Shown piece by piece: positions 21,883-52,930 of a stretch of DNA of 64,000 nt. The stretch spans positions 1,120,001 to 1,184,000 of the forward strand of contig OZ219747.1 of assembly GCA_964291265.2 (NCBI GenBank), written 5' to 3'. Every line of letters begins with the position of its first letter. The first letter of the stretch is position 1. A model generated the notes under the pieces. The model saw only the letters and a list, made by a program, of their open reading frames with translations, was not told the origin of the DNA and ran no database searches. The position numbers and the translations under genes were made by a program. This stretch comes from Alphaproteobacteria bacterium. GTDB lineage: Bacteria; Pseudomonadota; Alphaproteobacteria; SP197.

Positions 21883-23029
21883 TCGTCAGGCAACGCGACG
21901 GTGAACGAGCACACTTCGCGCCAGCCACAGCGCCGGCAGGAGGAAGAGCGGTATCGAGGTGAGGATGAATGTCGACCAGCCCAGGGTCACGGTCAAGGCG
22001 CCTGAGCCAAAGGATGCAACGGCAGCCCCGAGTGCGATGAGAGTCTCGTTGAGCCCCTGCACCCGGGACTGATCCTCCGGCCGGACGTGTTCGGCAAGGA
22101 GGCTTGTCGATCCGATGAAACCGAAGTTCCAGCCGACTCCGAGCAGGACAAGGGCCAGATAGAAGTTCTCCAGGGCAACGCCGGACCAGGCGACGAGGGC
22201 CGCCGCCGCCAGCAGCGCAAGACCGATGGCCATGACGCACCGCGATCCCCAGCGCTCGATCAGCGATCCGGTGAAGAAGCTCGGGCCGAACATGGCGACG
22301 ACGTGCCAGCGCACCACATCGGCGGACTGATCGGTCGACAGCCCGCAGTCAGCCATCGCGAGGGCTGTGGGCGTCATCACGAACACCATCATGGCGTGGG
22401 CGGAGGCAGCGCAGATGATGGCGGTCACCACCGGCGGGCTGCCAAGGATCCGACCGAGCGGCTGAGCCGCTGTCCGTGACCGCGGTGGAGGCTTGGCAAG
22501 ATCGAGAAAGAGGACCGGCAGGCATCCGGCAAGGCAGATGAGCACGATGGCCGCATAGGCGCCGGCAAAGGGCACGGGGAAGAAGTAGTCCCGTGTGTGG
22601 ATCAGGATCTCCGGGCCGAGCAGCGCGGCAATCAGGCCCGAGCCGGTGATGATGGCGATCGCCTTGGGTTTCCAGGGCCCGTGGACGGCATCGGCGGCGG
22701 CGAAGCGGAAGTACCACAGGCTGCTCTGCATGGCGCCAAAGCACACGTGGGCGAGGCAGAGGTAGATGAAGTCCCTCTCGAAGAGCGCCACGGCGCCCAG
22801 CCAGCCTCCCACCATGGCGCATCCGGCGCCGCCGAGAAACCCGGCGCGGCGGCCAAATCGTCCCATGAGCAGGGAAACAGGAGTGGCCGTCACCATGGCG
22901 CTCAGCATCTGCAGGGAAATGGTGAAGGTGGCAAGACTCGGCACCGGCGCCGCATAGGCCCCGGCGAGGCCTCCGTAAGCGTTCGGCCACGCGGTGATTG
23001 TTGGTGATATTCACCGGTTGAGGATGCGT

Positions 23030-23318
23030 TTGGGAGGCGCACCACGTGGCGGTTCGCTGTTGGGTCCGAAGACGATGGGTCCGGGTCGGGTTGCTCGTCG
23101 TTGGGGTGGCGGCAGGGTGATGAGGCCGTCGCGGTGCATGGCCAGAAAGGCGACATTCGCCATCATGTTCTTGAGGCCCCGTCGGGCTTGTATCAGCCGG
23201 TCTCGCGGCAGAAGGCGCGGGCGATGGCCGCACGGGTGGGGTGCTGGGTGATCAGGGAGCGCAACAGCGCCATCTCGTGCGCGGTGAAGTCACGGCCGTC
23301 GTAACGGCACTCGATCAC
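23030..23318 (-). pseudogene. Passenger ORF remnant resembling the N-terminal part of DUF4338 (DruA-like) proteins
   Basis: GTG overlaps the tnpC stop; RYDGRDFTAHEMALLRSLI...FCRETG*YKPDG / frameshift / LKNMMANVAFLAMHRDGLITLPPP. Confidence 0.5.
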
Positions 23319-24143
23319 CCCGGTTCCATGAGGTCCCTTCGACGCTCCGGGGGCATCGACCATGGCAGCCACGGGTCGAGGTCATCCGGCGGCTTGCCGC
23401 CGTTCTGCGCGCAGGCCTCAAGCCACTCATGAAGCCAGCGCCGAACATTGATGTTGTTCATGGCAAGGGTGCCGATGACCGAGTACATGATGGCGGTGAA
23501 GGCGGCGCCTTCCTCGCTGTCGGAGCCGAAGCTCAGCTTTCTCGCGGTCACCGCACCCCGGAGGGCTCTCTCGGCAAAGTTGTTGTCCATGGGCACCTGG
23601 GGATGGTCGACAAAGACGCACAGTCCCTCGCGGTGACGGATCAGGGAACGCAAGGGCTTCGCTTCGCGTGCACCCTCGGGCAAGGCGTCGAGTTCCTCCT
23701 GAGCCTGCCTGAACAGCGCCTCGACAGCCGCACGAAGGTCCTTCTGCAGGGCATTGAACCTCGCTGACTGACGCTTGCGTGCGGGATCGTAGTGCTTCAG
23801 CCGTTGCCCATTCAGTGTGTAGATCAGCGCGATCCTGTCGAGCCACTTGTCGCACCACTCTTCCAGCCCCTCCTGGCCTGCCGCAGCCTCGATCACATCG
23901 CGCCTGGAGTGCGCCCAGCAAAGGCAGAGGATCACCTTGCCATCAAGCTCACGCTCCAGTTTCCTGTAGACCACGTAGCGGTCGCAAACAAGGAAGACGA
24001 CACCTTCGGTGGAGGCGAACAGCACCATGGCCACCCGGGCGCTGCGTGACGGGTCGATAAGGAAGAAGACGGAGTCGGCGCTGACCGCGGTCCACAGCCA
24101 GGCCTTCTGCGAGCGCCCCGAGGCCTTGAGGGAGGGGGATGCG

Positions 24144-26062
24144 GTGTGCCAGGCGAACTGGCGGAAGGTAGGGGGGGAAAGTCCCCTGAAACGAAGGAGT
24201 AACCAAACCACGTTTCTCCGCGAGCCGTGCGTCGGTTCCCGCGAGGGGGCAGGCGAAGCGTCGGTAGCGGTACGGATGGGCAGGGCTAATGAGCACCGAA
24301 AAGTCCGTTGTTCGGGGTGCCGAGGCTTTCGCATCGGTCGAAGGCAACATCGCAGGCATCGATTTGGTGAGATGTCGGCGAGCCCCGCGGTGTCGGAGAA
24401 CCCATGCACGTCCGCACGCCTTCTGTTGGGACCCTGGGAGGTCTTCGAACTATCCCGCCTGTCGTGGCGGGACCGTGTAGGGAAAGGAGAAAGCCGAAGC
24501 CTATGAGGAACGGTTTGAAGAAGTCGGATGGGGCCGTAAGACCGGTGAAGGCGGCGAACAAGGGAGCGTCAGCTTCTGCGGAGTCGCTGGAGGAAAGGGC
24601 CTCAACCAAGGGGAATCCGGGACGCCAAAGCACGCACCGAACGCAGTGTCGGGCAAGTGTGCCACAGGCGGCGGACCGGATACGGGAAGCTGCAGAGAGG
24701 AACCCGAAGGAGCGTCTCACTGCACTCTTCCATCACATTACGCCGGACGCGCTCCGGGCGGCCTACTTCGGTTTGAAGAAGGAAGCCTCGGCAGGTGTCG
24801 ACGGCGTGACGTGGGCGGCGTATGGCGAGGGTCTGGACGAGCGCTTGCTTGATCTGCACTCGCGCCTGCATCGTGGGGGAGCGTACCGGGCGCCGCCGGT
24901 TCGGCGGGTTGAGATACCCAAGCCGGACGGCGGGACACGACCGCTCGGGATTGCCGCACTGGAGGACAAGATCGTCCAGAAGGCGGTTGTGGATGTGATC
25001 CTGACACCGATTTATGAGGTGGAGTTCCTTGGCTTCAGCTACGGGTTCCGACCGGGCCGAGGGGCGCATGACGCTCTCGACGCCCTGGCGTTCGGGATCG
25101 AGCGGCGCAAGGTCAACTGGATAGTCGACGCGGACATTCAGGGGTACTTCGACACAATCCCGAGGGATTGGTTGATCAAGTTCCTGGAGCATCGCATTGG
25201 CGACAGGCGGGTGATCCGTCTGATCCGCAAGTGGCTGAACGCTGGCGTCATGACCGACGGATCATGGAGCGACACCGGTGCGGGCACGCCTCAGGGCGCC
25301 ATTGTCAGCCCCTGCCTGGCGAACGTGTTTCTGCACTACGTGCTCGATCTGTGGTTTCACAAGGCATGGCGTCCGAAGGTTCCGAACGGTAAAGCGATCA
25401 TTGTCCGCTACGCGGACGATATTGTGGTCGGGTTCCAGCATAAGCGGGATGCGGAGACATACCTTCGCGACGTTCGGGAGAGGCTGGACCGCTTTGGTCT
25501 CACCCTTCACCCGGACAAGACCCGTCTCGTTGAGTTTGGACGGTTTGCCAAGGCGAACCGGCGATCTCGCGGGGCGGGCAGGCCGGAGACGTTCGACTTC
25601 CTGGGCTTCACGCACTTCTGCACGGAGACCCGGAGAGGACGCTTCAGGCTTGGTCGCAAGCCGGTCGCAAAACGGGTCGCAAGGACCCTGGCGCGCATCG
25701 AGGAGGTGCTTCGCAATCGACGGCATCACGACATATGGGAGGTCGGCATGTGGCTTGGGCGAGTTGTCAATGGCTGGTCCAACTACTTCGCCGTTCCGGG
25801 GTCGACCCGATGGCTGCGCACGTTCCGCCAAAGGCTGCAACGCCTATGGCTGCGAGCGATCCGCCGCCGCTCCCAGCGCCACTGCTTTGACTGGAAGCGA
25901 TTGGAGCGCATGACCGAGCTTCTTTGGCCGCGCGTCTCCATCCGCCACCCATGGCCGGACCAGCGGTTTACCGTCAAGCACCCGAGGTAGGAGCCGGATG
26001 GATTAACGTCCATGTCCGGATCTGTGCGGGGGGTGCGCAGCAATGCGCATCCCTACCGCGAC
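24144..26062 (+). mobile_element. Group II intron with RT/maturase ORF
   Basis: 5' GTGTG at 24144; DV GAGCCGGATGGATTAACGTCCATGTCCGGATC and DVI ending CCCTACCGCGAC at 26062; candidate EBS1 CGCATC (24330-24335) complements IBS1 GATGCG (24138-24143). Confidence 0.92.
24503..25990 (+). CDS. ltrA: Group II intron reverse transcriptase/maturase (no endonuclease domain)
   Basis: AGVDG, IPKPDGGTRPLGI, SYGFRPGR, GTPQG, RYADD, FDFLGF, domain X; ends just before DV. Confidence 0.95.
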   Translation: MRNGLKKSDGAVRPVKAANKGASASAESLEERASTKGNPGRQSTHRTQCRASVPQAADRIREAAERNPKERLTALFHHITPDALRAAYFGLKKEASAGVDGVTWAAYGEGLDERLLDLHSRLHRGGAYRAPPVRRVEIPKPDGGTRPLGIAALEDKIVQKAVVDVILTPIYEVEFLGFSYGFRPGRGAHDALDALAFGIERRKVNWIVDADIQGYFDTIPRDWLIKFLEHRIGDRRVIRLIRKWLNAGVMTDGSWSDTGAGTPQGAIVSPCLANVFLHYVLDLWFHKAWRPKVPNGKAIIVRYADDIVVGFQHKRDAETYLRDVRERLDRFGLTLHPDKTRLVEFGRFAKANRRSRGAGRPETFDFLGFTHFCTETRRGRFRLGRKPVAKRVARTLARIEEVLRNRRHHDIWEVGMWLGRVVNGWSNYFAVPGSTRWLRTFRQRLQRLWLRAIRRRSQRHCFDWKRLERMTELLWPRVSIRHPWPDQRFTVKHPR

Positions 26063-27342
26063 CCAGCTGGTCTCGTCGCCGTGGCGCACCGTCAGCCGGT
26101 TCTGATGATCGAGGATGGCCTGAGCGAGAGGCGCGAACATCGGCGTCATCTTCTTCATGCCGCCAGCGATCGTTCCCGGCGCCATCGGCAGTCCCTGGTC
26201 TTCCAGCCATCGCGAGACCCGGCGCAGGGGACGCAAGCAGGCGAAGCGCTCATAGAGCACGCATTCCCAGACACTGATGCCGAAGGGGGTATTCGCAAGC
26301 AAGCGCAAAGGTGGCGGCGCGATGATCTCCGCAGGCGCCGACGAACACTGACAACCACGGCGCCAACGCCCACGTTCAATCCGCCGGATATGAGCCTTGA
26401 CATGGACCTCCATGATCGAGGTCTCGTGGCTGCCGTTGGCCACATAGGGCTCGCCGCAACACGGGCACGTGCGCTGCGATGCCGGTGGATCATGGCGTTC
26501 GTGCTTCTCCTTGAGCTTCGGACGCGGAGTGCGCCCGTGGCCGCTCTTGCCGGGTTGCTGACCCCGCTTGTTCCCTGTGCCTTCCTTCTTCTTCCGCTTC
26601 TCGCTCTTCGACCCGAAGCGCGCCGTCGCGTGCTTGGCACGCGTCCCGCGGAGATTCCTCAGCTCGCTCGCCTGTTCAGCGTTCTTGAGCTTCAGAGCGT
26701 CCCTTTCCTGCTCCAGCGCCTCCGCTCGGGCCTGTCCACGCTTCACCTCCCGGCGAGCCTCCTTGAGCTGATCACGAGTGCGGTCGAGATGAAACTTGAA
26801 TGTGCCCGCACGGGCACGGGCAGAATTCTTCGCACGGCGCAGGTCACGCATACGCGCTTCCGCCGCATCCGCACGAACCCGCTCCGCCTCATAGAGCGCA
26901 CGCCAGTCAGGCGCCTCGCATGACAAGGCCACTGACGCCCGACATAGGCCGTCACCACCTCCCGTCAGCTGCTGTGTCGCTCCGCGCGTCTCGGCAAAAG
27001 TCTTCATGGCCTCGACCATAATCGAGACCAAACGAGTTTACCAGCTCTTTCTCAGACGATAGTCAGCAAGACCCAAACCAACCAAAATCAGCCATCACCG
27101 AACGGCCGAACGCTTACAGGCCTCCCATGATGATGAGCATGGGCATCTGGGCGCCAAGCAAGGCGTTGCCCGCGAACAGCGCCACGAGATTGCGTATGAT
27201 GGTGCGCCGTCCGGGGGCGTTCCCGGGTGACGAAGGGGAATCTCTGTTCATGACGGAACTGTCCAGATATCCGGTGTCCGGGACAGACTATCTCGCCGTC
27301 GCCGCGCCCGATACCGGCGCTCCGGCCCGGTGCTGCTGACGC

Positions 27343-38597: not shown

Positions 38598-39663
38598 CGG
38601 GGAGCCCTTCCTTGGCCCGGCGGTCAATCCATCGGATGGCCATGACAGCCAGGCACGCCCCACGATCGTTCGGAGGCCCCGCGTCCTCATCGATTCGCCC
38701 GGTGAACGCGGCTGAGCGCTCTTCGGGTCAAGGACGTGACGGTGCAGGCTCATGGCCGGATGGCCGGCGGTTTCCTGTCGGCTCACCCGACGGGCACATC
38801 GAGGCGATACGCGCAGAACCTGATGTTGCTCGCAGCCAGGTACACCGACGCCACCCGTGAACCTCCGGCCGAAGAAGCGCACCGAGGACGGAGTCGTCTC
38901 GGCACAGCAGAAGCCAAGCGGCGGACGTCGCCGCGAAGAACAGGTGTTGGGCGCGTGCGGCTTGCGCGGATACCGCGCACTGTGAAGGCGACCGCCGCCA
39001 TGCCGGCATCCCTCCAGGTGGCAGCGCTCCGCCTCGGCCGCATCAATCCTTATCAAGGAGAGGCCAGACATGGGCGCAGGAAAGCATGGAACCCGGGAAG
39101 GAAACGTGCGACATTGACTGGCCTCCGCTGATCTCATCGTCACGGAGACAAGCCCCTCGGCCGACTTCTTGCAGGTCGGTCGAAGGGCAACCACCCCAGA
39201 CCAGCAGACAATTCAAGCAGAACCGACGGAATCCACGTCAGAAATCACGCAAACGCTTTCTGGCGCACCTGGAATCCGTCATGTCCGTGGTGTTGCTGTC
39301 GCGGGATTCACCCCGCCTTCAGCGTGATTTCGCCAACTCCAGGAACTGGCGTTTCCGTCTCGCTTCTCACGGCGGTGGTTCCTGCATCCGCGAGCAGTCC
39401 GTGATGGAAGGTGGGGACAACACGCCGGGGGCGGTGCTCTGCGAACGTTCAGGACCAGGTGCTGCGCAGAAACGGCGTCACTTTCGGCCCCGGCGACCCG
39501 TAGTGTTCCCTGTGGAACCTGCTGGCACTCGCCGGCATCGACGAAGACGACTGGACGCCTGAGGTTTCGATACTGGACCCCGCCGGGAACGCTGGATGAT
39601 GGGCGAGAAGAGCGGCCGGGCTTGCGGGTTCTTGGCGCCCTCCCGGAAGGCGCCCTTGCGGAT

Positions 39664-46141: not shown

Positions 46142-46294
46142 CTTGATTCTTCCCCCCGGAGGTCCGTCGTGACGCATGCGCACGGCACCGCTCCTCCTTG
46201 ATCGCCAGCCTAGTCAGCCGGTCCGACGCGCGTCAAGACTGTGATCACAGATTGACAGGAAAGGGCAGGACCGAGCAGATTGCCGGGACGTACC

Positions 46295-46627
46295 GTGGCC
46301 CCCTGTTCCTTCCTACACCTGATGGCGACAGCTCTCGGTCTCGGTCCCCGCCCGGGTCCCGTGTTCGGCCGGGCCGTTCTCCGCAGGCGATACGACGTCG
46401 CGATCATGGGCGGCGCAGGTCACGGTCTTGCGGCCGCATACTACCTGGCCGATGAGCATGGTGTCAGCGATGTCGTGGTCATGGAGAAGGGCTGGTTGGG
46501 CGGTGGCAATACGGGGCGCAACACGACCATGGTGCGCGCCGACTACCTGCTGCCGGACAACCAGGAGTTCTTCGGCCATGCGCGCTCCATGTGGCCGCCC
46601 CTGTCACGCGAGCTCAACTTCAATGTC
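46295..46627 (+). pseudogene. soxB: Sarcosine oxidase beta subunit, 5' fragment
   Basis: YDVAIMGGAGHGLAAAYYLADEHG...EKGWLGGGNTGRNTT...ELNFNV, then an abrupt switch to soxA-like sequence. Confidence 0.8.
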
Positions 46628-47152
46628 ATCGATGTCCCGCCCGAGGCGCTGTCGTTTCCGGGATACCCGGTTCGACGGCGTTCGTGCGCGTGTCTTCCGC
46701 ATCAGCTACTCCGGCCAACTGGCCTACGAAATCCATGTCGGCGCGAAGCACGGCGAACGGTTGTGGGATGCGGTGGCGGCGGCCGGCACGCCCTTCGGCA
46801 TCGCGCCCTATGGCGTCGAAGCCCTTGATGTCATGCGGATCGAAAAGGGCCATTGCGCCGGCAGCGAGTTCGACGGCCGCACGGCACCCGCTGAACTGGG
46901 CCTCGACCGCATGACAGGGCGTGTAAGCGCCAGCATTCCCTTCATCAGCTGTTGGTCGGGTTTCGTCGGACCGGCGCACACCCATTCCTCGCGGCGCGAT
47001 TCTCGTGGCCGGGACGGCACGATCCGAAGCTCTGGGCCACGTGACCGCATCCGTCATCGGTCCGACGCTCGGTCAGCCCATCGCGTTGGCCATGCTCCGG
47101 GGATCGATCGGCGACGATGAACTCCGTGCCGTCTCGTCCGTCGCCGGCCCTC
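46628..47152 (+). pseudogene. soxA: Sarcosine oxidase alpha subunit, 3' fragment (frameshifted, IS21-interrupted; tail at 52484-52550)
   Basis: RVFRISYSGQLAYEI, PYGVEALDVMRIEKGH, GHVTAS..PTLGQPIALAML; tail VETTGLPFYDANGGRMRA* after the transposon. Confidence 0.8.
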
Positions 47153-47220
47153 TGTTGATGGCTGCATAGAACGGCGGGATTTCGGCGATTTGCCGCGCTT
47201 TGTCAGGGTCGTGTTTCTTC

Positions 47221-47311
47221 CCTGTTGTCAGGTCCTATTGTCACGTCCTGTTGTCGTGGGTTCAGTGTTCGGCTGATTGTCTCCCCGAGCGCCGCCCGTT
47301 TTCCTATTGTC
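47221..47311 (+). repeat. Iteron-like CCT(A/G)TTGTC repeats
   Basis: Copies at 47221, 47234 and 47247 (13-bp period) and 47303; near-copy in inverted orientation at 52339-52347. Confidence 0.7.
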
Positions 47312-47636
47312 GTTTTGGTCCGGTTCGGATTGTTCCGTCGGCCTCTGCTTCGGTCTTGGTGACGGTTGCCGGGAGGGTTTCGGTTCCGAGGCACTCGCGG
47401 GATCGTCTGTTTTCCCTGTGGTCTGGGTCGTGTTGTCCGGTCCCGGGGCGGCGTTTTTGCCGCCGCCCCGGGTGGATGCTAGATCGGCATCGAAAGAAAG
47501 AGCGATGCGATGCCGGGCAGAGTTGTGATGACGCCCCCCGGCGCAGCACCCGGACGAGCCGGTCACGGGGGACCGAACTCCCGTGTATTGTCGAGCCATT
47601 TTGCGTCCGGGTCCACCCCCGCTCTCGAGACGGATC

Positions 47637-48113
47637 GTGTGCACGACGGGACGACTGTTCAACTGCAAGCGGTGTCAGCGGCAGGTTGTTCTCTGCCGGT
47701 CGTGTGACCGGGGGCATGTGTATTGCTCCGATGAGTGCAGGGAGCGGTCCCGGATCGAGCGGCGCCGCGCGTCGCGTCGTCGCTACCAGAGCACGCTGAG
47801 GGGCCGTGAGACGGGCCGTCACCGCCAGCGGCGTTACCGGCTCCGCAAGGCGGAGGAGGCGCGTGCGTTGAAGGCCAGGGCGGCGATGCTTGCCGAGATC
47901 ATGGGCACGCAGACGTCTGCTGTGGTGCTGCTTGGCGACGTTCCGGCGGTGTCTGGAGACGCCGGTTCCGAAGAAATCGTTACGGACCACCCTTCCCGAC
48001 TGCTGCCGACCTCCCTACCTGCGGTTGTGAAGGCGCGAGAGCGACGCGAATCGCCGCTTCGGTGCGCCCGGTGCGGACGGGTCGTGACGCATGTGGTGCT
48101 GAGGGACCTGTGA
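47637..48113 (+). CDS. Cys-rich Zn-finger-like protein upstream of istA
   Basis: CKRC..VVLCRSCDRGHVYCSDEC, basic helix RRASRRRYQ, C-terminal CARCG; start uncertain (ORF opens at 47583). Confidence 0.65.
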   Translation: MCTTGRLFNCKRCQRQVVLCRSCDRGHVYCSDECRERSRIERRRASRRRYQSTLRGRETGRHRQRRYRLRKAEEARALKARAAMLAEIMGTQTSAVVLLGDVPAVSGDAGSEEIVTDHPSRLLPTSLPAVVKARERRESPLRCARCGRVVTHVVLRDL

Positions 48114-48145
48114 TGCGGCGTTGAGGAACCAAAGGGAGGGAGTTC

Positions 48146-49639
48146 ATGGCGATCGACGAGGACACGCGGGCGACGATCGTGCGGCTGTCGCGGGCCGAGG
48201 GCTGGGCTGTGGGGACGATTGCCCGGCATCTCGGCGTGCACCACGGCACGGTGACGCGGGCGCTCAAGGCGTCGGGGCAGGAGCGGCGGCCGCGGGCCAA
48301 GCTCATCGACCCCTTCGTTGCCTTCCTCGGGGAGCGTCTTGAGGCGTCGCCGGACCTTCCGGCCAGCACGCTCTGGCGACAGGTCGTGGCCCTGGGCTAC
48401 CGCGGCGGCGAGGATCACTTCCGTCACGACCTGCGCCGCCTCGGGCTGAGGCCGGTGAAGAGGCCCGAGCCGTCGCTGCGGCTGAGCTTCCTTCCGGGCG
48501 AGCAGGCGCAGGTTGACTGGGCCGAGTTCGGGAAGGTCCGCATTGGCCGGGCGGAGCGCAGGCTCATGGGGCTTCTCGTCACCCTCAGCTACTCGCGCCA
48601 GACTGTCCTGAGCCTGTTCCACGACGCGCGGATGGCCAGCTTCCTGCAAGGCCATGTCGAGGCTTTCGCGGCATTCGGGGGTGTGCCGCGGAGGCTTCTG
48701 TACGACAACCTGAAGAGTGCCGTGGTGACGCGCCGCGGCAAGGCGGTCACCTATCATCCGATGCTGCTCGGCCTCGCGGCCCACTATGCCTTCGAACCGA
48801 GCGCCGCCTGGCCCAGGAGCCCGCAGGAGAAGGGCCGCGTGGAACGCCGTGTGCGCTTCGCGCGCACCGGGTTCTTCGCCGGGCGCGACATCACGGTCCC
48901 GCTCGGCGAGCTCAACGCCGCGGTTCGGGAGTGGTGCTTCGGCGCCGCCGCGGAGCGGCCCTGGCCGGACGACGACAGTCTCCTGGTGCGGGACGCCTTC
49001 GCCCGGGAGAGGGAGCACCTGATCGTCCTTCCCGTCGACCCCTTCCCGCATCACGAGGTCCGCCCGGTGCGCATCGACAAGACCTGCCACGCCCGCTTCG
49101 ACACCAACGACTACAGCGTTCCGGGTAGCTTCTCCAAGGCCCTGCTGACGCTGGTCGCCGACCGCGACGAGGTCCGCATCCTCGACGGCGCCGACGAGGT
49201 CGCGCGCCACCGACGCTCCTACGACAGGAAGCAGGCCGTCACCGATCCGGAGCATGCCAGGGCGATCGCCGCGGGCAAGCGGCGGGCCCGCTCCATGAGC
49301 GTCCGCGACCGGGTCCTGCGCACCGTGCCGCGGGCCGAGGAGATGCTGGCGCGCGCCGGGACCAACGGGCGCAACGTGGCCTCCTGCGCCCGGATGCTGG
49401 AGACGCTTCTCAACGCGCACGGCGCCGACGCTCTCGACCGGGCTGTCGCCACGGCGCTGGAGCGCGGCTCGTGCCACCCCGAAACCGTGCGCGTCATCAT
49501 CGAGGAGCGCCGCCGGGAGCAGGGCCTGCCGCCCCTCAGCATCGCCGACGACGGCCGCGGCGGCCGTGGCACGACGCCGCGGGGGACCGCTCTCGACGCC
49601 TACGACAGGCCCGAAGCCAGCGCCAGGAACAAGACATGA
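48146..49639 (+). CDS. istA: IS21 transposase
   Basis: N-terminal HTH, PGEQAQVDW, LSYSR, FGGVP..LYDNLKSAV, EKGRVER; GGGAGG RBS. Confidence 0.93.
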   Translation: MAIDEDTRATIVRLSRAEGWAVGTIARHLGVHHGTVTRALKASGQERRPRAKLIDPFVAFLGERLEASPDLPASTLWRQVVALGYRGGEDHFRHDLRRLGLRPVKRPEPSLRLSFLPGEQAQVDWAEFGKVRIGRAERRLMGLLVTLSYSRQTVLSLFHDARMASFLQGHVEAFAAFGGVPRRLLYDNLKSAVVTRRGKAVTYHPMLLGLAAHYAFEPSAAWPRSPQEKGRVERRVRFARTGFFAGRDITVPLGELNAAVREWCFGAAAERPWPDDDSLLVRDAFAREREHLIVLPVDPFPHHEVRPVRIDKTCHARFDTNDYSVPGSFSKALLTLVADRDEVRILDGADEVARHRRSYDRKQAVTDPEHARAIAAGKRRARSMSVRDRVLRTVPRAEEMLARAGTNGRNVASCARMLETLLNAHGADALDRAVATALERGSCHPETVRVIIEERRREQGLPPLSIADDGRGGRGTTPRGTALDAYDRPEASARNKT

Positions 49640-50337
49640 GCGAGCTCAGGGAGCGTGCCCGGGCGCTCGGCCTCCACGGGCTCGTCGAACGCTGGGACGA
49701 GGTCGCCGGGACCGCATGGATCGAGGAGGTGGTCAGCGGCGAGGAACAGGCCCGCAGGGCCCGCAGCCACGAGCGCCGCCGCGCCGCGGCGCGGCTGCCC
49801 GCCTTCAAGCCCCTGGCGGACTTCGACTGGACATGGCCGCGCGACATCAGCCGGGCTCATGTCGAAGCGCTCCTCGGCCTCGGCTTCGTCGACCGTGCGG
49901 ACAACGCCGTGCTCGTCGGCGGGCAGGGCACCGGAAAGACCATGATCGCCGCCAACGTGGCGCACCAGGCCCTGCTGCACGGCCACACCGTCCGCTTCGA
50001 GAAGGCGCCGGAACTGCTCGAGGCACTCGCCGAGACCGTCTCGCGCAGCGAGCTGCGCCGCCGCCTCGCGATCCTCGCCAGGCCCCGCCTGCTCGTCCTC
50101 GACGAAATCGGCTACGTGACCCTCGAAAGCCACCATGCCGACATCCTCTACGCCATCGTCTCGCGGCGCTATCAGCGCCGCTCGACCATGGTCACGACAA
50201 GCCTCGCCTTCGCCCAGTGGGACCGCGTCTTCCCCAGCGCCTCCGGCATCGCCGGCACCGTCGACCGGCTCATGCACGACGCAACCCTCATCTCCATCGA
50301 CAGCGACTCCTGGCGGCTCAGGCGTGAAACCCGATAA
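49636..50337 (+). CDS. istB: IS21 AAA+ ATPase
   Basis: KPLADFDW, GGQGTGKT, LVLDEIGY, RRYQ, DRLMH, SWR. Confidence 0.92.
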   Translation: MSELRERARALGLHGLVERWDEVAGTAWIEEVVSGEEQARRARSHERRRAAARLPAFKPLADFDWTWPRDISRAHVEALLGLGFVDRADNAVLVGGQGTGKTMIAANVAHQALLHGHTVRFEKAPELLEALAETVSRSELRRRLAILARPRLLVLDEIGYVTLESHHADILYAIVSRRYQRRSTMVTTSLAFAQWDRVFPSASGIAGTVDRLMHDATLISIDSDSWRLRRETR

Positions 50338-51217
50338 ACCCCGCCGCGTCGACTTCGACGCCGTCAAGCGCATGCCGTTCGAACGCATCGCCGCCGACTG
50401 GGGATACGTCCGCGACGAACAGGCCTCGACACGCGCCAACCCCGTCCTGTGCGCACCCGGCCTGCCGAAGCTCGTCACGAAGTGCCTCAACAACGGACAC
50501 TGGGTCTACTTCAACACCCAGAACGATGAAGACAACGGAACCGTCATCGACTTCATGCTCAACCGCGGACTGGCCTTCGCCGACATCTGCACCCGCTTCA
50601 CAGCACCCGACACCGCGCCACGCGACTTCCGCAGCCTCTGGGCCGCGGCAACGCCCGATGCGGCCCCGGACTGGCTCACCGGGCGCGGCATCCTCCCGGA
50701 GACCCTCGACACCTGCCGCCCCCTGGTCCGCCGCGACCACAACGGACGCGTCCTCTTCGCCCATCGCAACAGGAAGCGAAAGCTCACCGGCTTCGAGATC
50801 GGTCCCCCCGACGGACCGAAACGCTTCGCCACCGGTGGAACCCGAAGCCTGTTCGCCGTCCGCGCCGGAACCGCCGCGGACCTCGAGGCCCTCGTCATCA
50901 CCGAAAGCGCCGTCGACGCCCTCAGCCTGGCCCAGATCGACCAATGTCCCCCCAGCCACGCCTTCCTCTCCACCGCCGGGGCACCCTCGCGAAGACAGCA
51001 CGAACAGATCAGCCTCGCCGCAAGCAGCCTGCCCAACGTCAGGACCATCGTCCTCGCCCAGGACCACGACGAGGCCGGAGAGCGACAGGCCGAAACCCTG
51101 CGCAAAAAGATGAAGCTCCCCTCCCACGTCTCGTTCCACAGACGCAGACCGCCGGAAAACGCCGACTGGAACGACGTCGTCAACGCCAGGACCAAAGAAC
51201 CACAAGCGAGATCATGA
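50324..51217 (+). CDS. TOPRIM/primase-like protein (DUF3991 + Toprim type)
   Basis: DNGTVIDF, WLTGRGI, TGFE, F..GG, ITESAVDALS, STAG, AQDHDEAG, DWND; GTG overlaps istB end. Confidence 0.75.
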   Translation: MKPDKPRRVDFDAVKRMPFERIAADWGYVRDEQASTRANPVLCAPGLPKLVTKCLNNGHWVYFNTQNDEDNGTVIDFMLNRGLAFADICTRFTAPDTAPRDFRSLWAAATPDAAPDWLTGRGILPETLDTCRPLVRRDHNGRVLFAHRNRKRKLTGFEIGPPDGPKRFATGGTRSLFAVRAGTAADLEALVITESAVDALSLAQIDQCPPSHAFLSTAGAPSRRQHEQISLAASSLPNVRTIVLAQDHDEAGERQAETLRKKMKLPSHVSFHRRRPPENADWNDVVNARTKEPQARS

Positions 51218-51534
51218 CCACGTCCGTCACAAGGAGACCACTCATGCCCCTCACGCCCGCCGAAAAGCAGCGGCGATACCGGGAACGGCGCAAGGCCGGC
51301 ATCCCTCCCGTCCACACCCCAAAGCATCGTGACCGGCGCTCGCGACCGCAACGCTGGAACGACGCCGTGGCCGAACTGCGCGCCCTGCAGGACGAATGGC
51401 GTGACCGCCTCGACAGCATCCCCGAAACCCTCCGTGACACGCCTTACGGAGAACGCCTGCAGATCGTCGCCGATGCCGACATCGAGGCCCTCGAGGACAT
51501 CGAACCGCCACGCGGCTACGGAAGGGATACGTGA
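51214..51534 (+). CDS. Small hypothetical protein (basic N-terminus, helical C-terminus)
   Basis: LTPAEKQRRYRERRK...RSRPQRWNDAV.EL..LQ.EW...PPRGYGRD; ATGA-coupled to the TOPRIM gene. Confidence 0.65.
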   Translation: MTTSVTRRPLMPLTPAEKQRRYRERRKAGIPPVHTPKHRDRRSRPQRWNDAVAELRALQDEWRDRLDSIPETLRDTPYGERLQIVADADIEALEDIEPPRGYGRDT

Positions 51535-52098
51535 TCCCGCAAGACCCTTGAACGCGGTCACGCGTTACCATCCAGGAATGAGAACGTCTCACCCCGACGC
51601 GCCGCTCAGCCTCCCCGGGAAACTCCCGGGCCGTCCAAACGACACCGCATCACGAGACTGCCGCAGCCGCTGGCCGGACTGGCTTACAGGTCGCAGCATC
51701 CGCCCGAAAACACTCAACGCCTGCCGCACCCTGCAGGACGAATGGCGTGACCGCCTCGACAGCATCCCCGAAACCCTCCGTGACACGCCTTACGGAGAAC
51801 GCCTGCAGATCGTCGCCGATGCCGACATCGAGGCTCTCGAGGACATCGAACCGCCACGCGGCTACGGAAGGGACACGTAATCTCGCAAGACCCTTGAACG
51901 CGGTCACGCGTTACCATCCAGGAATGAGAACGTCTCACCCCGACGCGCCTCTCAGCCTCCCCGGGAAACCCCCGGGCCGTCCAAACGACACCACATCACG
52001 AGACTGCCGCAGCCGCTGAGCCGCAGCAACGCCCGATCCGCCGCCGGACTGGCTCACAGGTCGCAGCATCCGCCCGAAAACACTCGACGCCTGCCGCA
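51383..52098. repeat. Near-identical tandem duplication (~346 bp + ~370 bp)
   Basis: 51383-51672 matches 51729-52018 at offset 346; the second copy has 24 extra bases at 52019-52042. Confidence 0.93.
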
Positions 52099-52320
52099 CC
52101 CTGCGCCGCCGCAACCGCAACGCACGCAGCCTCTTCGCCCAGCGCAACAGAAACCGTCAGCTCTCCAGCCTCGAGATCGTCCCGCCCGACGAACCACGAC
52201 GAGGACGGAGAACGCCAGAACGAAACCACGCGCAAAAGCCTGAAGCTCCCCTCCCACATCACGTTCCACAAACGCCGAACGCCAGAAAACGCCGACCGGA
52301 ACGACATCGTCAACGTCAAT
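51987..52320 (+). pseudogene. Diverged, internally deleted second copy of the TOPRIM gene
   Basis: Aligns by eye to ~50609-50810 and ~51061-51188, with an in-frame TGA replacing TGG and the middle segment missing. Confidence 0.8.
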
Positions 52321-52546
52321 GCAAGACCAATGGGATCCAACAATAGGCAGAAAACAAAGACCGGGCGGACCTTCGTCCAATGCCGCACGTTCTCCTGTCG
52401 TGGTCACCCACTCACACGATCAGCGCCCAAAAGAGCGGTTCTCCGCCAATATCCCGCCGTTCTAAATCGCCGCCGACACCCTCGATTGTCGCGGTGGAGA
52501 CCACCGGTCTGCCCTTCTACGATGCCAACGGCGGCAGGATGCGTGC

Positions 52547-52930
52547 ATGACCGCGTTGTCGGATATCGCAGCGCAGCCATCAACACATGGACCGGATCAG
52601 GCACGAGCTGTTGACACGGATCAGCGAAGCCGCGCACGAGAGATCAAGGACGGTGATGATGCTCGGCGGACAGCGGAATGGCTCATCCTGGACGGGGAGT
52701 CAGATGGTGTGGCGACTGCTCAGCCGTTCATCGTGTTTGAGGAAAGCGACGCGTGGGAGAAACCGTCGCACGGTTCTGCCCGATCGATGCCGGCGCTGAC
52801 ACGGGATTCGAAGGAACTGCCTGGGCCGCCGGTTTCGCCAGACAGCCATCGTGATGCCACGATCAGCCGGCGAGATCGCGATCCTCGTACCGCGCAGCTC
52901 CGCGGCGTCCCTCGTCGTCCTGGTCCGTGA
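52547..52930 (+). pseudogene. soxG: Sarcosine oxidase gamma subunit remnant
   Basis: ATG overlaps the soxA stop; EWLIL, EESDAW and (shifted frame) VARFCPID motifs. Confidence 0.55.

What the first reader, a model, noticed from the sequence alone, without database searches (positions are those of the whole stretch)
47153..52478. IS21 transposon carrying a TOPRIM/primase-like gene, a Zn-finger gene and a small coupled ORF: possible replication-competent IS21 subfamily
Seen: the IRs and CCCTC TSD bound a 5.3-kb unit with gene order ZnF-istA-istB-TOPRIM-small ORF, and istA through the small ORF overlap or are translationally coupled. Known: canonical IS21 elements are ~2-2.5 kb with only istA/istB, and IS21 family members can form IRR-IRL junction intermediates. 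Inference: the extra genes are core machinery rather than cargo; the primase-like protein could prime or replicate an excised circle, perhaps with the DnaC-related ATPase IstB.
Basis: partly seen in the sequence, partly recalled or inferred. Interest (0 to 1): 0.8.

Follow-up and report, generated by a model that had tools for sequence, protein, structure and literature searches.

The report
IS21 transposon clade with built-in primase
This is an active jumping gene, present in 30 full copies in one bacterial genome, whose lineage has long kept a primase-like gene beside its transposase; that gene likely starts DNA synthesis on the single-stranded copy predicted to form when the element jumps, and probably does not make it replicate as a free circle.

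Summary
The 5,326-bp element is real and active: 30 uninterrupted copies in this genome, TGT...ACA ends, a 5-7 bp target duplication in 26 of 30, and an empty site in a related run. It is an IS21-family element. The zinc-finger gene is core to a wide IS21 branch (74 of 74 metagenome loci). The DUF3991/TOPRIM gene is not: 0 of 64 loci of that branch carry it. It marks one subclade (support 100/100), where it follows istB in 62 of 67 loci, co-diverges with istAB and is under similar purifying selection. Its model matches the T7 primase domain with the main acidic residues kept, but it lacks zinc-binding cysteines. Plasmid homologues are fused to conjugative relaxases, and three other transposon backbones in these hosts carry the same family. 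The fifth ORF is a passenger and probably not coupled. No end-to-end junction or depth excess was seen, and there is no helicase or Rep, so a replicating circle is unsupported. Best reading (0.45): a captured mobilisation primase that likely primes the displaced strand during copy-out transposition. This scan noted similar four-gene elements on other DNA before; my literature searches found no description.

The parts
47148..47152 (.). Left copy of the 5-bp target duplication CCCTC, in a decayed GcvT/sarcosine-oxidase-like host gene
   Evidence: empty site in run X2; GCV_T hit on the upstream frame; frames on both flanks
47153..47202 (+). Left terminal inverted repeat (TGT...), about 50 bp, imperfect
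47203..47582 (+). G+T-rich left non-coding region; no sigma-70 promoter match and no Rfam match
47637..48113 (+). Cys-rich (zinc-finger-like) gene, CxxC-CxxC-CxxxC plus a C-terminal CxxC; an alternative start at 47583 is possible; no Pfam family; core gene of a wide IS21 branch
48146..49639 (+). istA, IS21 DDE transposase (D124, D187, E233)
   Evidence: NF033546 222 bits, cut-off 160; invariant residues
49636..50337 (+). istB, AAA+ helper ATPase, ATGA overlap with istA
   Evidence: PF01695 171 bits; NF038214 191 bits, just under its cut-off of 200
50324..51217 (+). DUF3991/TOPRIM primase-like gene, 297 aa, overlapping istB by 14 nt; E194, D198, D247, D249, D281 present; no zinc-binding cysteines
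51244..51534 (+). Small passenger ORF (96 aa; 106 aa if started at 51214), a widespread unnamed family
51535..52320 (+). Decayed duplicates: TOPRIM remnants (81-85% identical) and a second 3' part of the small ORF (346-bp repeat unit); two shorter copies in the genome lack one unit
52429..52478 (-). Right terminal inverted repeat (...ACA)
52479..52483 (.). Right copy of the target duplication CCCTC

Best explanation
This is an active IS21-family transposon whose subclade carries a primase-like gene, likely captured from a conjugative element, whose product likely primes second-strand synthesis on the single-stranded copy predicted to be displaced during copy-out/paste-in transposition. Shown: the whole unit moves and makes 5-7 bp duplications; TOPRIM has stayed with istAB since the subclade arose; sister lineages lack it. 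From the literature: IstA joins and inserts the ends, IstB captures the target, and a replicative copy-out route is proposed for IS21. Inferred: IstA joins one end to the other on one strand, host replication displaces that strand, and the element's own primase lays the primer that makes it a double-stranded circle fit for insertion. It would be an efficiency helper, not a requirement, and would give one round of copying, not maintenance as a plasmid.
For: Mobility: 30 full copies, 4.1% of the genome. TOPRIM is open in 31 of 32 copies examined. Linkage: 62 of 67 close TOPRIM loci, in 18 assemblies, have istB directly upstream; the 5 misses are 5'-truncated fragments. The 12 core TOPRIM-bearing IstA+IstB rows form one clade at 100/100 among 36 rows. 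The TOPRIM tree largely repeats the istA and istB trees, and median dN/dS over 45 pairs is 0.42 against 0.36 and 0.35. Fold: the model (pLDDT 89.6) best matches the T7 gp4 primase fragment (Z 15.7, rmsd 3.4 A, 180 residues; profile E 3.6e-11). E194, D247, D249, D281 and D284 are invariant in 43 of 43 sequences. Native context: homologues are C-terminal domains of MobV and MobA/VirD2-like relaxases or lie beside transfer genes; plasmid pAES1 has a separate RepL. Repeated association: the same primase family sits in a second IS21 lineage (3,423 bp, 8-bp duplications) and in two DDE + AAA_22 backbones, one adding an AAA_25 helicase-like gene. Copy-out with host replication is described or proposed for IS21. 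That IS911 circle formation needs host DnaG is recalled; the paper was not held.
Against: No activity was tested. The N-terminal domain has no zinc-binding cysteines. T7 K122 aligns to E158 (its importance is recalled). D198 is N in 13 of 25 clade proteins. The host has intact dnaG and priA, so no missing host function explains the capture. The wider branch exists without a primase. No junction contig was seen, so even the circle is not shown here. The strand-composition gradient that fits displaced-strand copying is also present in primase-less repeats of this genome, so it does not point to the primase. dN/dS is a simple NG86 estimate on GC-rich genes.
Confidence: 0.45

Rival explanations
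1. The primase acts after cell-to-cell transfer, not in jumping within a cell: it keeps its relaxase-linked role and converts incoming single-stranded DNA that carries the element into double-stranded DNA, helping the element establish in new hosts.
For: Homologues are fused to relaxases or lie beside TrbI and S26-peptidase genes. Clade members occur in distant hosts: records titled Paracoccaceae, other Alphaproteobacteria and one Acidimicrobiales. TrwC-like relaxase frames (label recalled) are repeated in these genomes.
Against: The element encodes no relaxase, and no origin of transfer was identified (not searched with a profile). The gene overlaps istB, so it is probably expressed with the transposition genes.
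Confidence: 0.2
2. The protein is a non-catalytic or weakly catalytic accessory: it binds or protects displaced single-stranded DNA, or shapes the transpososome, and the primase fold is kept for DNA binding.
For: No zinc cysteines, T7 K122 aligned to E158, D198 replaced by N in 13 of 25. Human Twinkle, recalled as primase-dead, is among the top fold matches. Earlier scan notes report other four-gene IS21 elements with degenerate active sites (unchecked AI notes).
Against: Five acidic residues are invariant in all 43 aligned sequences. The E/DxD/DWN motifs also recur in the second-family proteins. The cysteine-free N-terminus is shared with the non-transposon homologues.
Confidence: 0.15
3. Long-retained cargo: the gene benefits the host, or hitch-hikes because it is locked to istB by the overlap, with no role in movement.
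For: It replaces a small ORF found after istB in 49 of 64 sister loci. The position after istB is variable, and the fifth ORF is a true passenger.
Against: Purifying selection matches the transposase. Four transposon backbones hold the family, once in the opposite orientation with no overlap. The only PADLOC hit is a weak partial DnaG-like match.
Confidence: 0.13
4. One reading: the excised circle replicates autonomously, primed by the TOPRIM protein, with IstB acting as a DnaC-like loader.
For: Intact acidic motifs. A precedent exists in TnGBS, whose circle replicates like a plasmid (PMC3942029). A second element in this genome has both a primase-like and an AAA_25 gene.
Against: No helicase, polymerase or Rep in this element. 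No end-to-end junction in the assembly or in contigs of 3 of 3 runs. In X1 the core contigs are 31-33 times flank depth, against 36-38 integrated copies in the assembly. These are weak tests: contigs drop rare forms, depth is not copy number, and X1 need not be the assembled sample. IstB is described as a target-capture factor.
Confidence: 0.07

Closest known systems
IS21 family insertion sequences (IS21, IS5376; PMC10122671, PMC11208146)
   Same: IstA with D124/D187/E233, overlapping IstB, about 50-bp terminal inverted repeats ending in CA, short target duplications, no strong target sequence.
   Different: Described members have two ORFs. This one has a conserved upstream zinc-finger-like gene, a conserved primase-like gene overlapping istB, a passenger ORF, and is 5.3 kb (relatives 4.0-4.7 kb).
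ZnF-istA-istB-small ORF IS21 elements of 3.3-3.4 kb (e.g. on Aromatoleum aromaticum EbN1 plasmid 1, Alicycliphilus pALIDE02, Paraburkholderia PGU19 p3)
   Same: Same ZnF gene, IstA 42-46% identical, TGT...ACA ends with 5-6 bp duplications.
   Different: A 60-70 aa ORF follows istB in place of the primase-like gene.
Relaxase-linked DUF3991/TOPRIM proteins (MobV of Paracoccus pAES1; relaxase fusion on Citrobacter plasmid NZ_CP115725; Bacteroidales ICEs, PMC4073490)
   Same: Same domain pair and acidic motifs.
   Different: Here the gene stands alone inside a transposon with no relaxase. I found no biochemical test of the family.
Bacteriophage T7 gp4 primase domain and bacterial DnaG
   Same: Fold of the catalytic core and the E/D/DxD residues.
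   Different: No zinc-binding cysteines, altered basic residues, no helicase or helicase-binding domain.
TnGBS elements (PMC3942029) and IEE (bioRxiv 2023.06.07.543989)
   Same: TnGBS joins IS-type transposition with replication of the circle; IEE is a primase that acts on copy-out insertion sequences.
   Different: TnGBS uses a Mutator-like transposase, a plasmid-like replicase and conjugation genes. IEE is an AEP-type PrimPol-helicase that acts on other elements and promotes their excision.
Tn6049 of Cupriavidus metallidurans (PMC2864759)
   Same: A 3.5-kb, 12-copy transposon with a GspA-like ATPase; it may resemble the DDE + AAA_22 backbones that carry the primase family here (not aligned).
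   Different: No TOPRIM is mentioned in the main text (0 occurrences). It is not the IS21 element studied.

Membership tests
IS21 family | IstA DDE transposase | tested here: met
   NF033546 222.4 bits, cut-off 160; D124, D187, E233 invariant in 31 sequences, the same numbers as in PMC11208146
IS21 family | IstB AAA+ helper directly downstream | tested here: met
   PF01695 171 bits, cut-off 24.1; NF038214 191.4, just under its cut-off of 200
IS21 family | Terminal inverted repeats ending in CA | tested here: met
   TGT...ACA, 34 of 50 matches
IS21 family | Short target-site duplication | tested here: met
   5-7 bp in 26 of 30 copies
IS21 family | Repeated IstA sites inside each end (L1/L2, R1/R2) | tested here: inconclusive
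   Best internal direct repeat only 9-13 of 18 matches
IS21 family | Joined-end circle or tandem intermediate | tested here: inconclusive
   None in the assembly or in contigs of 3 runs; contigs drop rare forms
Canonical two-ORF IS21 | Only istA and istB between the ends | tested here: not met
   Five ORFs here; four genes in relatives
DUF3991/Toprim_2 protein family | Toprim_2 domain | tested here: met
   50.2 bits, cut-off 22.1
DUF3991/Toprim_2 protein family | DUF3991 domain | tested here: inconclusive
   20.7 bits, under the cut-off of 24.5; several close homologues carry the hit
DnaG/T7-type primases | TOPRIM glutamate, DxD and downstream aspartate | tested here: met
   E194, D247, D249, D281 in 43 of 43; D198 present here, N in 13 of 25 clade proteins
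DnaG/T7-type primases | Catalytic-core fold (N-terminal subdomain plus TOPRIM) | tested here: met
   1nui Z 15.7, rmsd 3.4 A, 180 aligned; Foldseek E 1.6e-7 to 7e-7 for the top primases
DnaG/T7-type primases | Zinc-binding domain with cysteine ligands | tested here: not met
   No conserved cysteine in residues 1-95
DnaG/T7-type primases | Basic residues of the active-site ridge | tested here: inconclusive
   R121 invariant and K/R at 166-167, but T7 K122 aligns to E158 in a 17%-identity alignment; residue roles recalled
DnaG/T7-type primases | Template-directed primer synthesis | not testable with these tools
   needs an assay
Self-replicating transposons (TnGBS-like) | Encoded replicase, helicase or polymerase | tested here: not met
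   None among the five ORFs
Self-replicating transposons (TnGBS-like) | Extrachromosomal copies in excess | tested here: inconclusive
   Depth ratio 31-33 against 36-38 integrated copies; contig depth is a rough measure

The most novel reading that the evidence does not exclude
Self-priming DDE transposons are an unrecognised class: several unrelated transposase-ATPase lineages (two IS21 lineages and two Mu/IS481-like backbones, one with a helicase-like gene too) have each taken a conjugative primase to run the replicative step of their own transposition, which makes them partly independent of the host primosome and, in the primase-plus-helicase form, perhaps briefly able to replicate.
Probability: 0.35. 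Interest if true: 0.82.

Novelty: new variant of a known kind. Interest (0 to 1): 0.58.

Why it matters
How the single-strand-bridged intermediate of copy-out insertion sequences becomes a double-stranded circle is left to 'host replication' in the papers I read, and the IS21 route itself is only proposed. A clade with a built-in primase-like gene, beside sister elements without it, is a natural experiment for that step. It would also give the untested DUF3991/TOPRIM family a function, and may help explain why these elements reach 30 or more copies per genome.

Tried and rejected
Joined ends: none in the assembly or contigs. Expression: no RNA holder listed. IstB-TOPRIM complex prediction: no verdict, score 0.00; not used as evidence. 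Replication-guided targeting, as in Tn7 TnsE: 22 of 45 left ends follow the leading-strand direction, so no bias; no clear target consensus; 11 of 48 left ends lie in other repeats (15% of the genome) and 4 of 48 in copies of itself. Missing host primosome: dnaG and priA are intact. T7-like GTC priming sites in the left end: GTC is not among the enriched trimers in the clade. Skew gradient as a primase signature: rejected, 11 of 22 other repeat families in the genome have slopes of -0.20 or steeper. A degenerate primase hidden after istB in sister elements: by eye, none in the 14 metagenome loci and L283 that lack the small ORF. Defence role: one weak partial PADLOC hit. Rfam: none. Viral contigs: 20 loci, only distant homologues of 22-39% identity, context not examined. 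Small ORF on plasmids: no match. Phylum-wide istA search: 1 of 300 other genomes. The rows L094 and L107 have wrong or interrupted boundaries and were dropped from the element counts. Literature: ten searches listed no paper on a primase-bearing IS21. ISfinder, most subscription papers and all supplements were not seen.
Full report
Observation. The element spans window 47153-52478 (5,326 bp), starts TGT, ends ACA and is flanked by CCCTC on both sides. The own-genome search gave 52 matches; 30 are uninterrupted full copies of 98-100% identity, with target duplications of 5 bp (21), 6 bp (4), 7 bp (1) or none (4). Copies and fragments make up 197 kb, 4.1% of the genome, with 48 left ends. A contig of run X2 carries the empty site. 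In 32 copies (the 30 plus 2 shorter variants) ZnF, istA and istB are open in 32, TOPRIM in 31 and the small ORF in 29. So the whole unit moves and has done so recently. This copy sits in a decayed GcvT/sarcosine-oxidase-like gene.

Anatomy. IstA passes the IS21 transposase model and IstB matches PF01695. The fourth gene has Toprim_2 above cut-off and DUF3991 below it. istA/istB overlap by ATGA and istB/TOPRIM by 14 nt. The fifth ORF most likely starts at 51244 behind its own ribosome-binding motif. The last 0.8 kb before the right end holds decayed duplicates of the TOPRIM gene and the fifth ORF.

Which extra genes are core. TOPRIM first: the genome scan kept 76 loci from 247 confirmed stretches. 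Of these, 67 hold a close TOPRIM (48% identity or more) and 62 of the 67, in 18 assemblies, have istB directly upstream; the 5 misses are 5'-truncated fragments. Many of the 62 are copies within one genome. IstA first: 5 of 32 family relatives match; three have TOPRIM downstream, one is truncated and one (L283, 47% identity) has istB but no TOPRIM in 3.2 kb. In 80 metagenome loci of the wider branch (41-50% identity; the best 80 of 592, from a scan that stopped early), ZnF is upstream in 74 of 74 loci with enough room. TOPRIM is downstream in 0 of 64 with 300 bp or more and 0 of 24 with 900 bp or more; a 60-70 aa ORF follows istB in 49 of 64. Five plasmid loci agree. So ZnF belongs to a broad IS21 branch and TOPRIM to one subclade. 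In an IstA+IstB tree of 36 rows the 12 core TOPRIM-bearing rows are one clade at 100/100; L101 (TOPRIM-bearing, partial istA) and L283 lie unresolved next to it. The gene trees largely agree, and median dN/dS is 0.36 for istA, 0.35 for istB, 0.42 for TOPRIM (45 pairs) and 0.53 for ZnF (36 pairs). The fifth ORF is in 2 of the 10 delimited clade elements and also in an IS110-like element (family label recalled) of this genome; it has 790 relatives at E 0.001 or better and no named family.

What the TOPRIM protein is. The model is confident (pLDDT 89.6). Its best matches are the T7 gp4 primase fragment, Aquifex and other DnaG cores, and Twinkle; by profile, T7 gp4 is first. E194, D247, D249, D281 and D284 are invariant in 43 sequences. 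D198 is present here but N in 13 of 25 clade proteins. There are no zinc-binding cysteines, and T7 K122 aligns to E158. It looks like a minimal T7-type primase, but it does not pass every membership test and activity is unproven. Distant homologues (about 35%) lie near TrbI and S26-peptidase genes, not near istAB. On plasmids the module is often the C-terminal part of MobV or MobA/VirD2-like relaxases, and pAES1 has a separate RepL. This points to a role on transferred single-stranded DNA and not to replication initiation (inference).

Repeated association. A second subfamily of this primase sits in other multi-copy transposons of the same group of hosts: a 4,006-bp DDE + AAA_22 element with 15 equal-scoring primase matches in G005; a 5,161-bp DDE + AAA_22 + AAA_25 element with 6 copies in this genome, two of them hit by the element studied; and a 3,423-bp IS21 of another lineage (IstA 31% identical) with the gene in the opposite orientation, 8-bp duplications and 5 copies in G360. 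The two subfamilies are separate clades, so at least two captures from outside are needed, plus exchange among backbones.

Mechanism. IS21 is described as two ORFs between terminal repeats (PMC10122671, Introduction and passages read). IstB captures and bends the target, and a copy-out/paste-in route 'has been proposed' (PMC11208146, passages). IS21 is listed among families with circular intermediates (bioRxiv 2023.06.07.543989, passages), and host replication converts the figure-of-eight into a circle (PMC3219604, passages). That DnaG is needed for IS911 is recalled only. In that route one strand is displaced and needs a primer. A relaxase-derived primase, expressed with istB, fits this step, and would also fit the replicative step of Mu-like backbones. 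I commit to this at 0.45. It is a helper, because sister elements lack it and the host has dnaG and priA.

Against a replicating circle. The element has no helicase, polymerase or Rep. No junction was found in the assembly or in contigs of three runs. In X1 the core contigs have depth 1,939-2,057 against 62-63 on the flanks, a ratio of 31-33, while the assembly holds 36-38 copies over the genes. These tests are weak, but none favours replication. TnGBS is the precedent for that reading and needs a plasmid-like replicase (PMC3942029, passages).

A signal that failed its control. G+T minus A+C skew falls steadily across the element (slope -0.50; at fourfold sites +0.37 in ZnF to -0.64 in TOPRIM) and in all delimited clade members, and less in sister elements from other hosts. 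It fits copying by strand displacement from either end. But 21 of 22 other repeat families in this genome slope the same way or are flat, 11 of them at -0.20 or steeper, so it is a host-wide trait of mobile DNA and says nothing specific about the primase.

Novelty. Ten literature searches found no description of a primase-bearing IS21. DUF3991 appeared in two papers, only in tables (passages read). Tn6049 is described without a TOPRIM gene (PMC2864759, passages), and PMC8649781 mentions TOPRIM only for OLD nucleases (passages). ISfinder, subscription papers and supplements were not seen and may hold named members. Earlier notes of this scan report similar four-gene elements on other DNA, mostly with a degenerate primase. 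A look-up with this IstA found none of them, so most are probably another lineage. Verdict: a new variant of a known kind, interest 0.58.

Noticed in passing
L120:562-5722 (own genome; a decayed left end lies at window 38810-39269): Second multi-copy transposon, 5,161 bp, 6 copies, 4-5 bp duplications: Cys-rich ORF, DDE transposase, AAA_22 ATPase, AAA_25 helicase-like gene and DUF3991/TOPRIM. It has both primase-like and helicase-like genes, so it is a better candidate for self-replication than the element studied.
   Followed up: partly
L192-L195 and L044:129-6494 (G360): A 3,423-bp IS21 of another lineage with a DUF3991/TOPRIM gene facing istB, 8-bp duplications, 5 copies; a relative in L289 also has the small ORF between istB and the primase gene.
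   Followed up: partly
L038:1647-5652 (G005): 4,006-bp TGT...ACA element: Cys-rich ORF, Mu/IS481-like transposase, AAA_22 ATPase, DUF3991/TOPRIM; 15 equal-scoring primase matches in that genome.
   Followed up: partly
whole genome G000: Most repeat families with terminal inverted repeats show a G+T-rich to A+C-rich gradient from end to end (21 of 22 slope down or are flat). It may record long single-strand exposure during transposition in this host.
   Followed up: partly
L125-L129, directly after istB: A conserved unnamed 60-70 aa ORF occupies the primase gene's place in 49 of 64 loci of the wider branch; function not examined.
   Followed up: partly
L121:2784-3074 and L121:5028-5318 (own genome): The small passenger ORF (78% identical) also rides in a four-copy IS110-like element, and lies next to primase genes in L288 and L289.
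   Followed up: partly
window 22972-27122: A 4.2-kb stretch made of sequence repeated up to 51 times in the genome; probably nested mobile elements.
   Followed up: no
window 46280-47152 and 52479-52550: Heavily decayed sarcosine-oxidase-like genes (DAO and GCV_T fragments); run X3 carries a longer, uninterrupted version of this site.
   Followed up: no
run X1, joints 47450-50984 and 48008-51055: Contigs that skip most of the element: possibly internally deleted, non-autonomous derivatives, or a related element.
   Followed up: no
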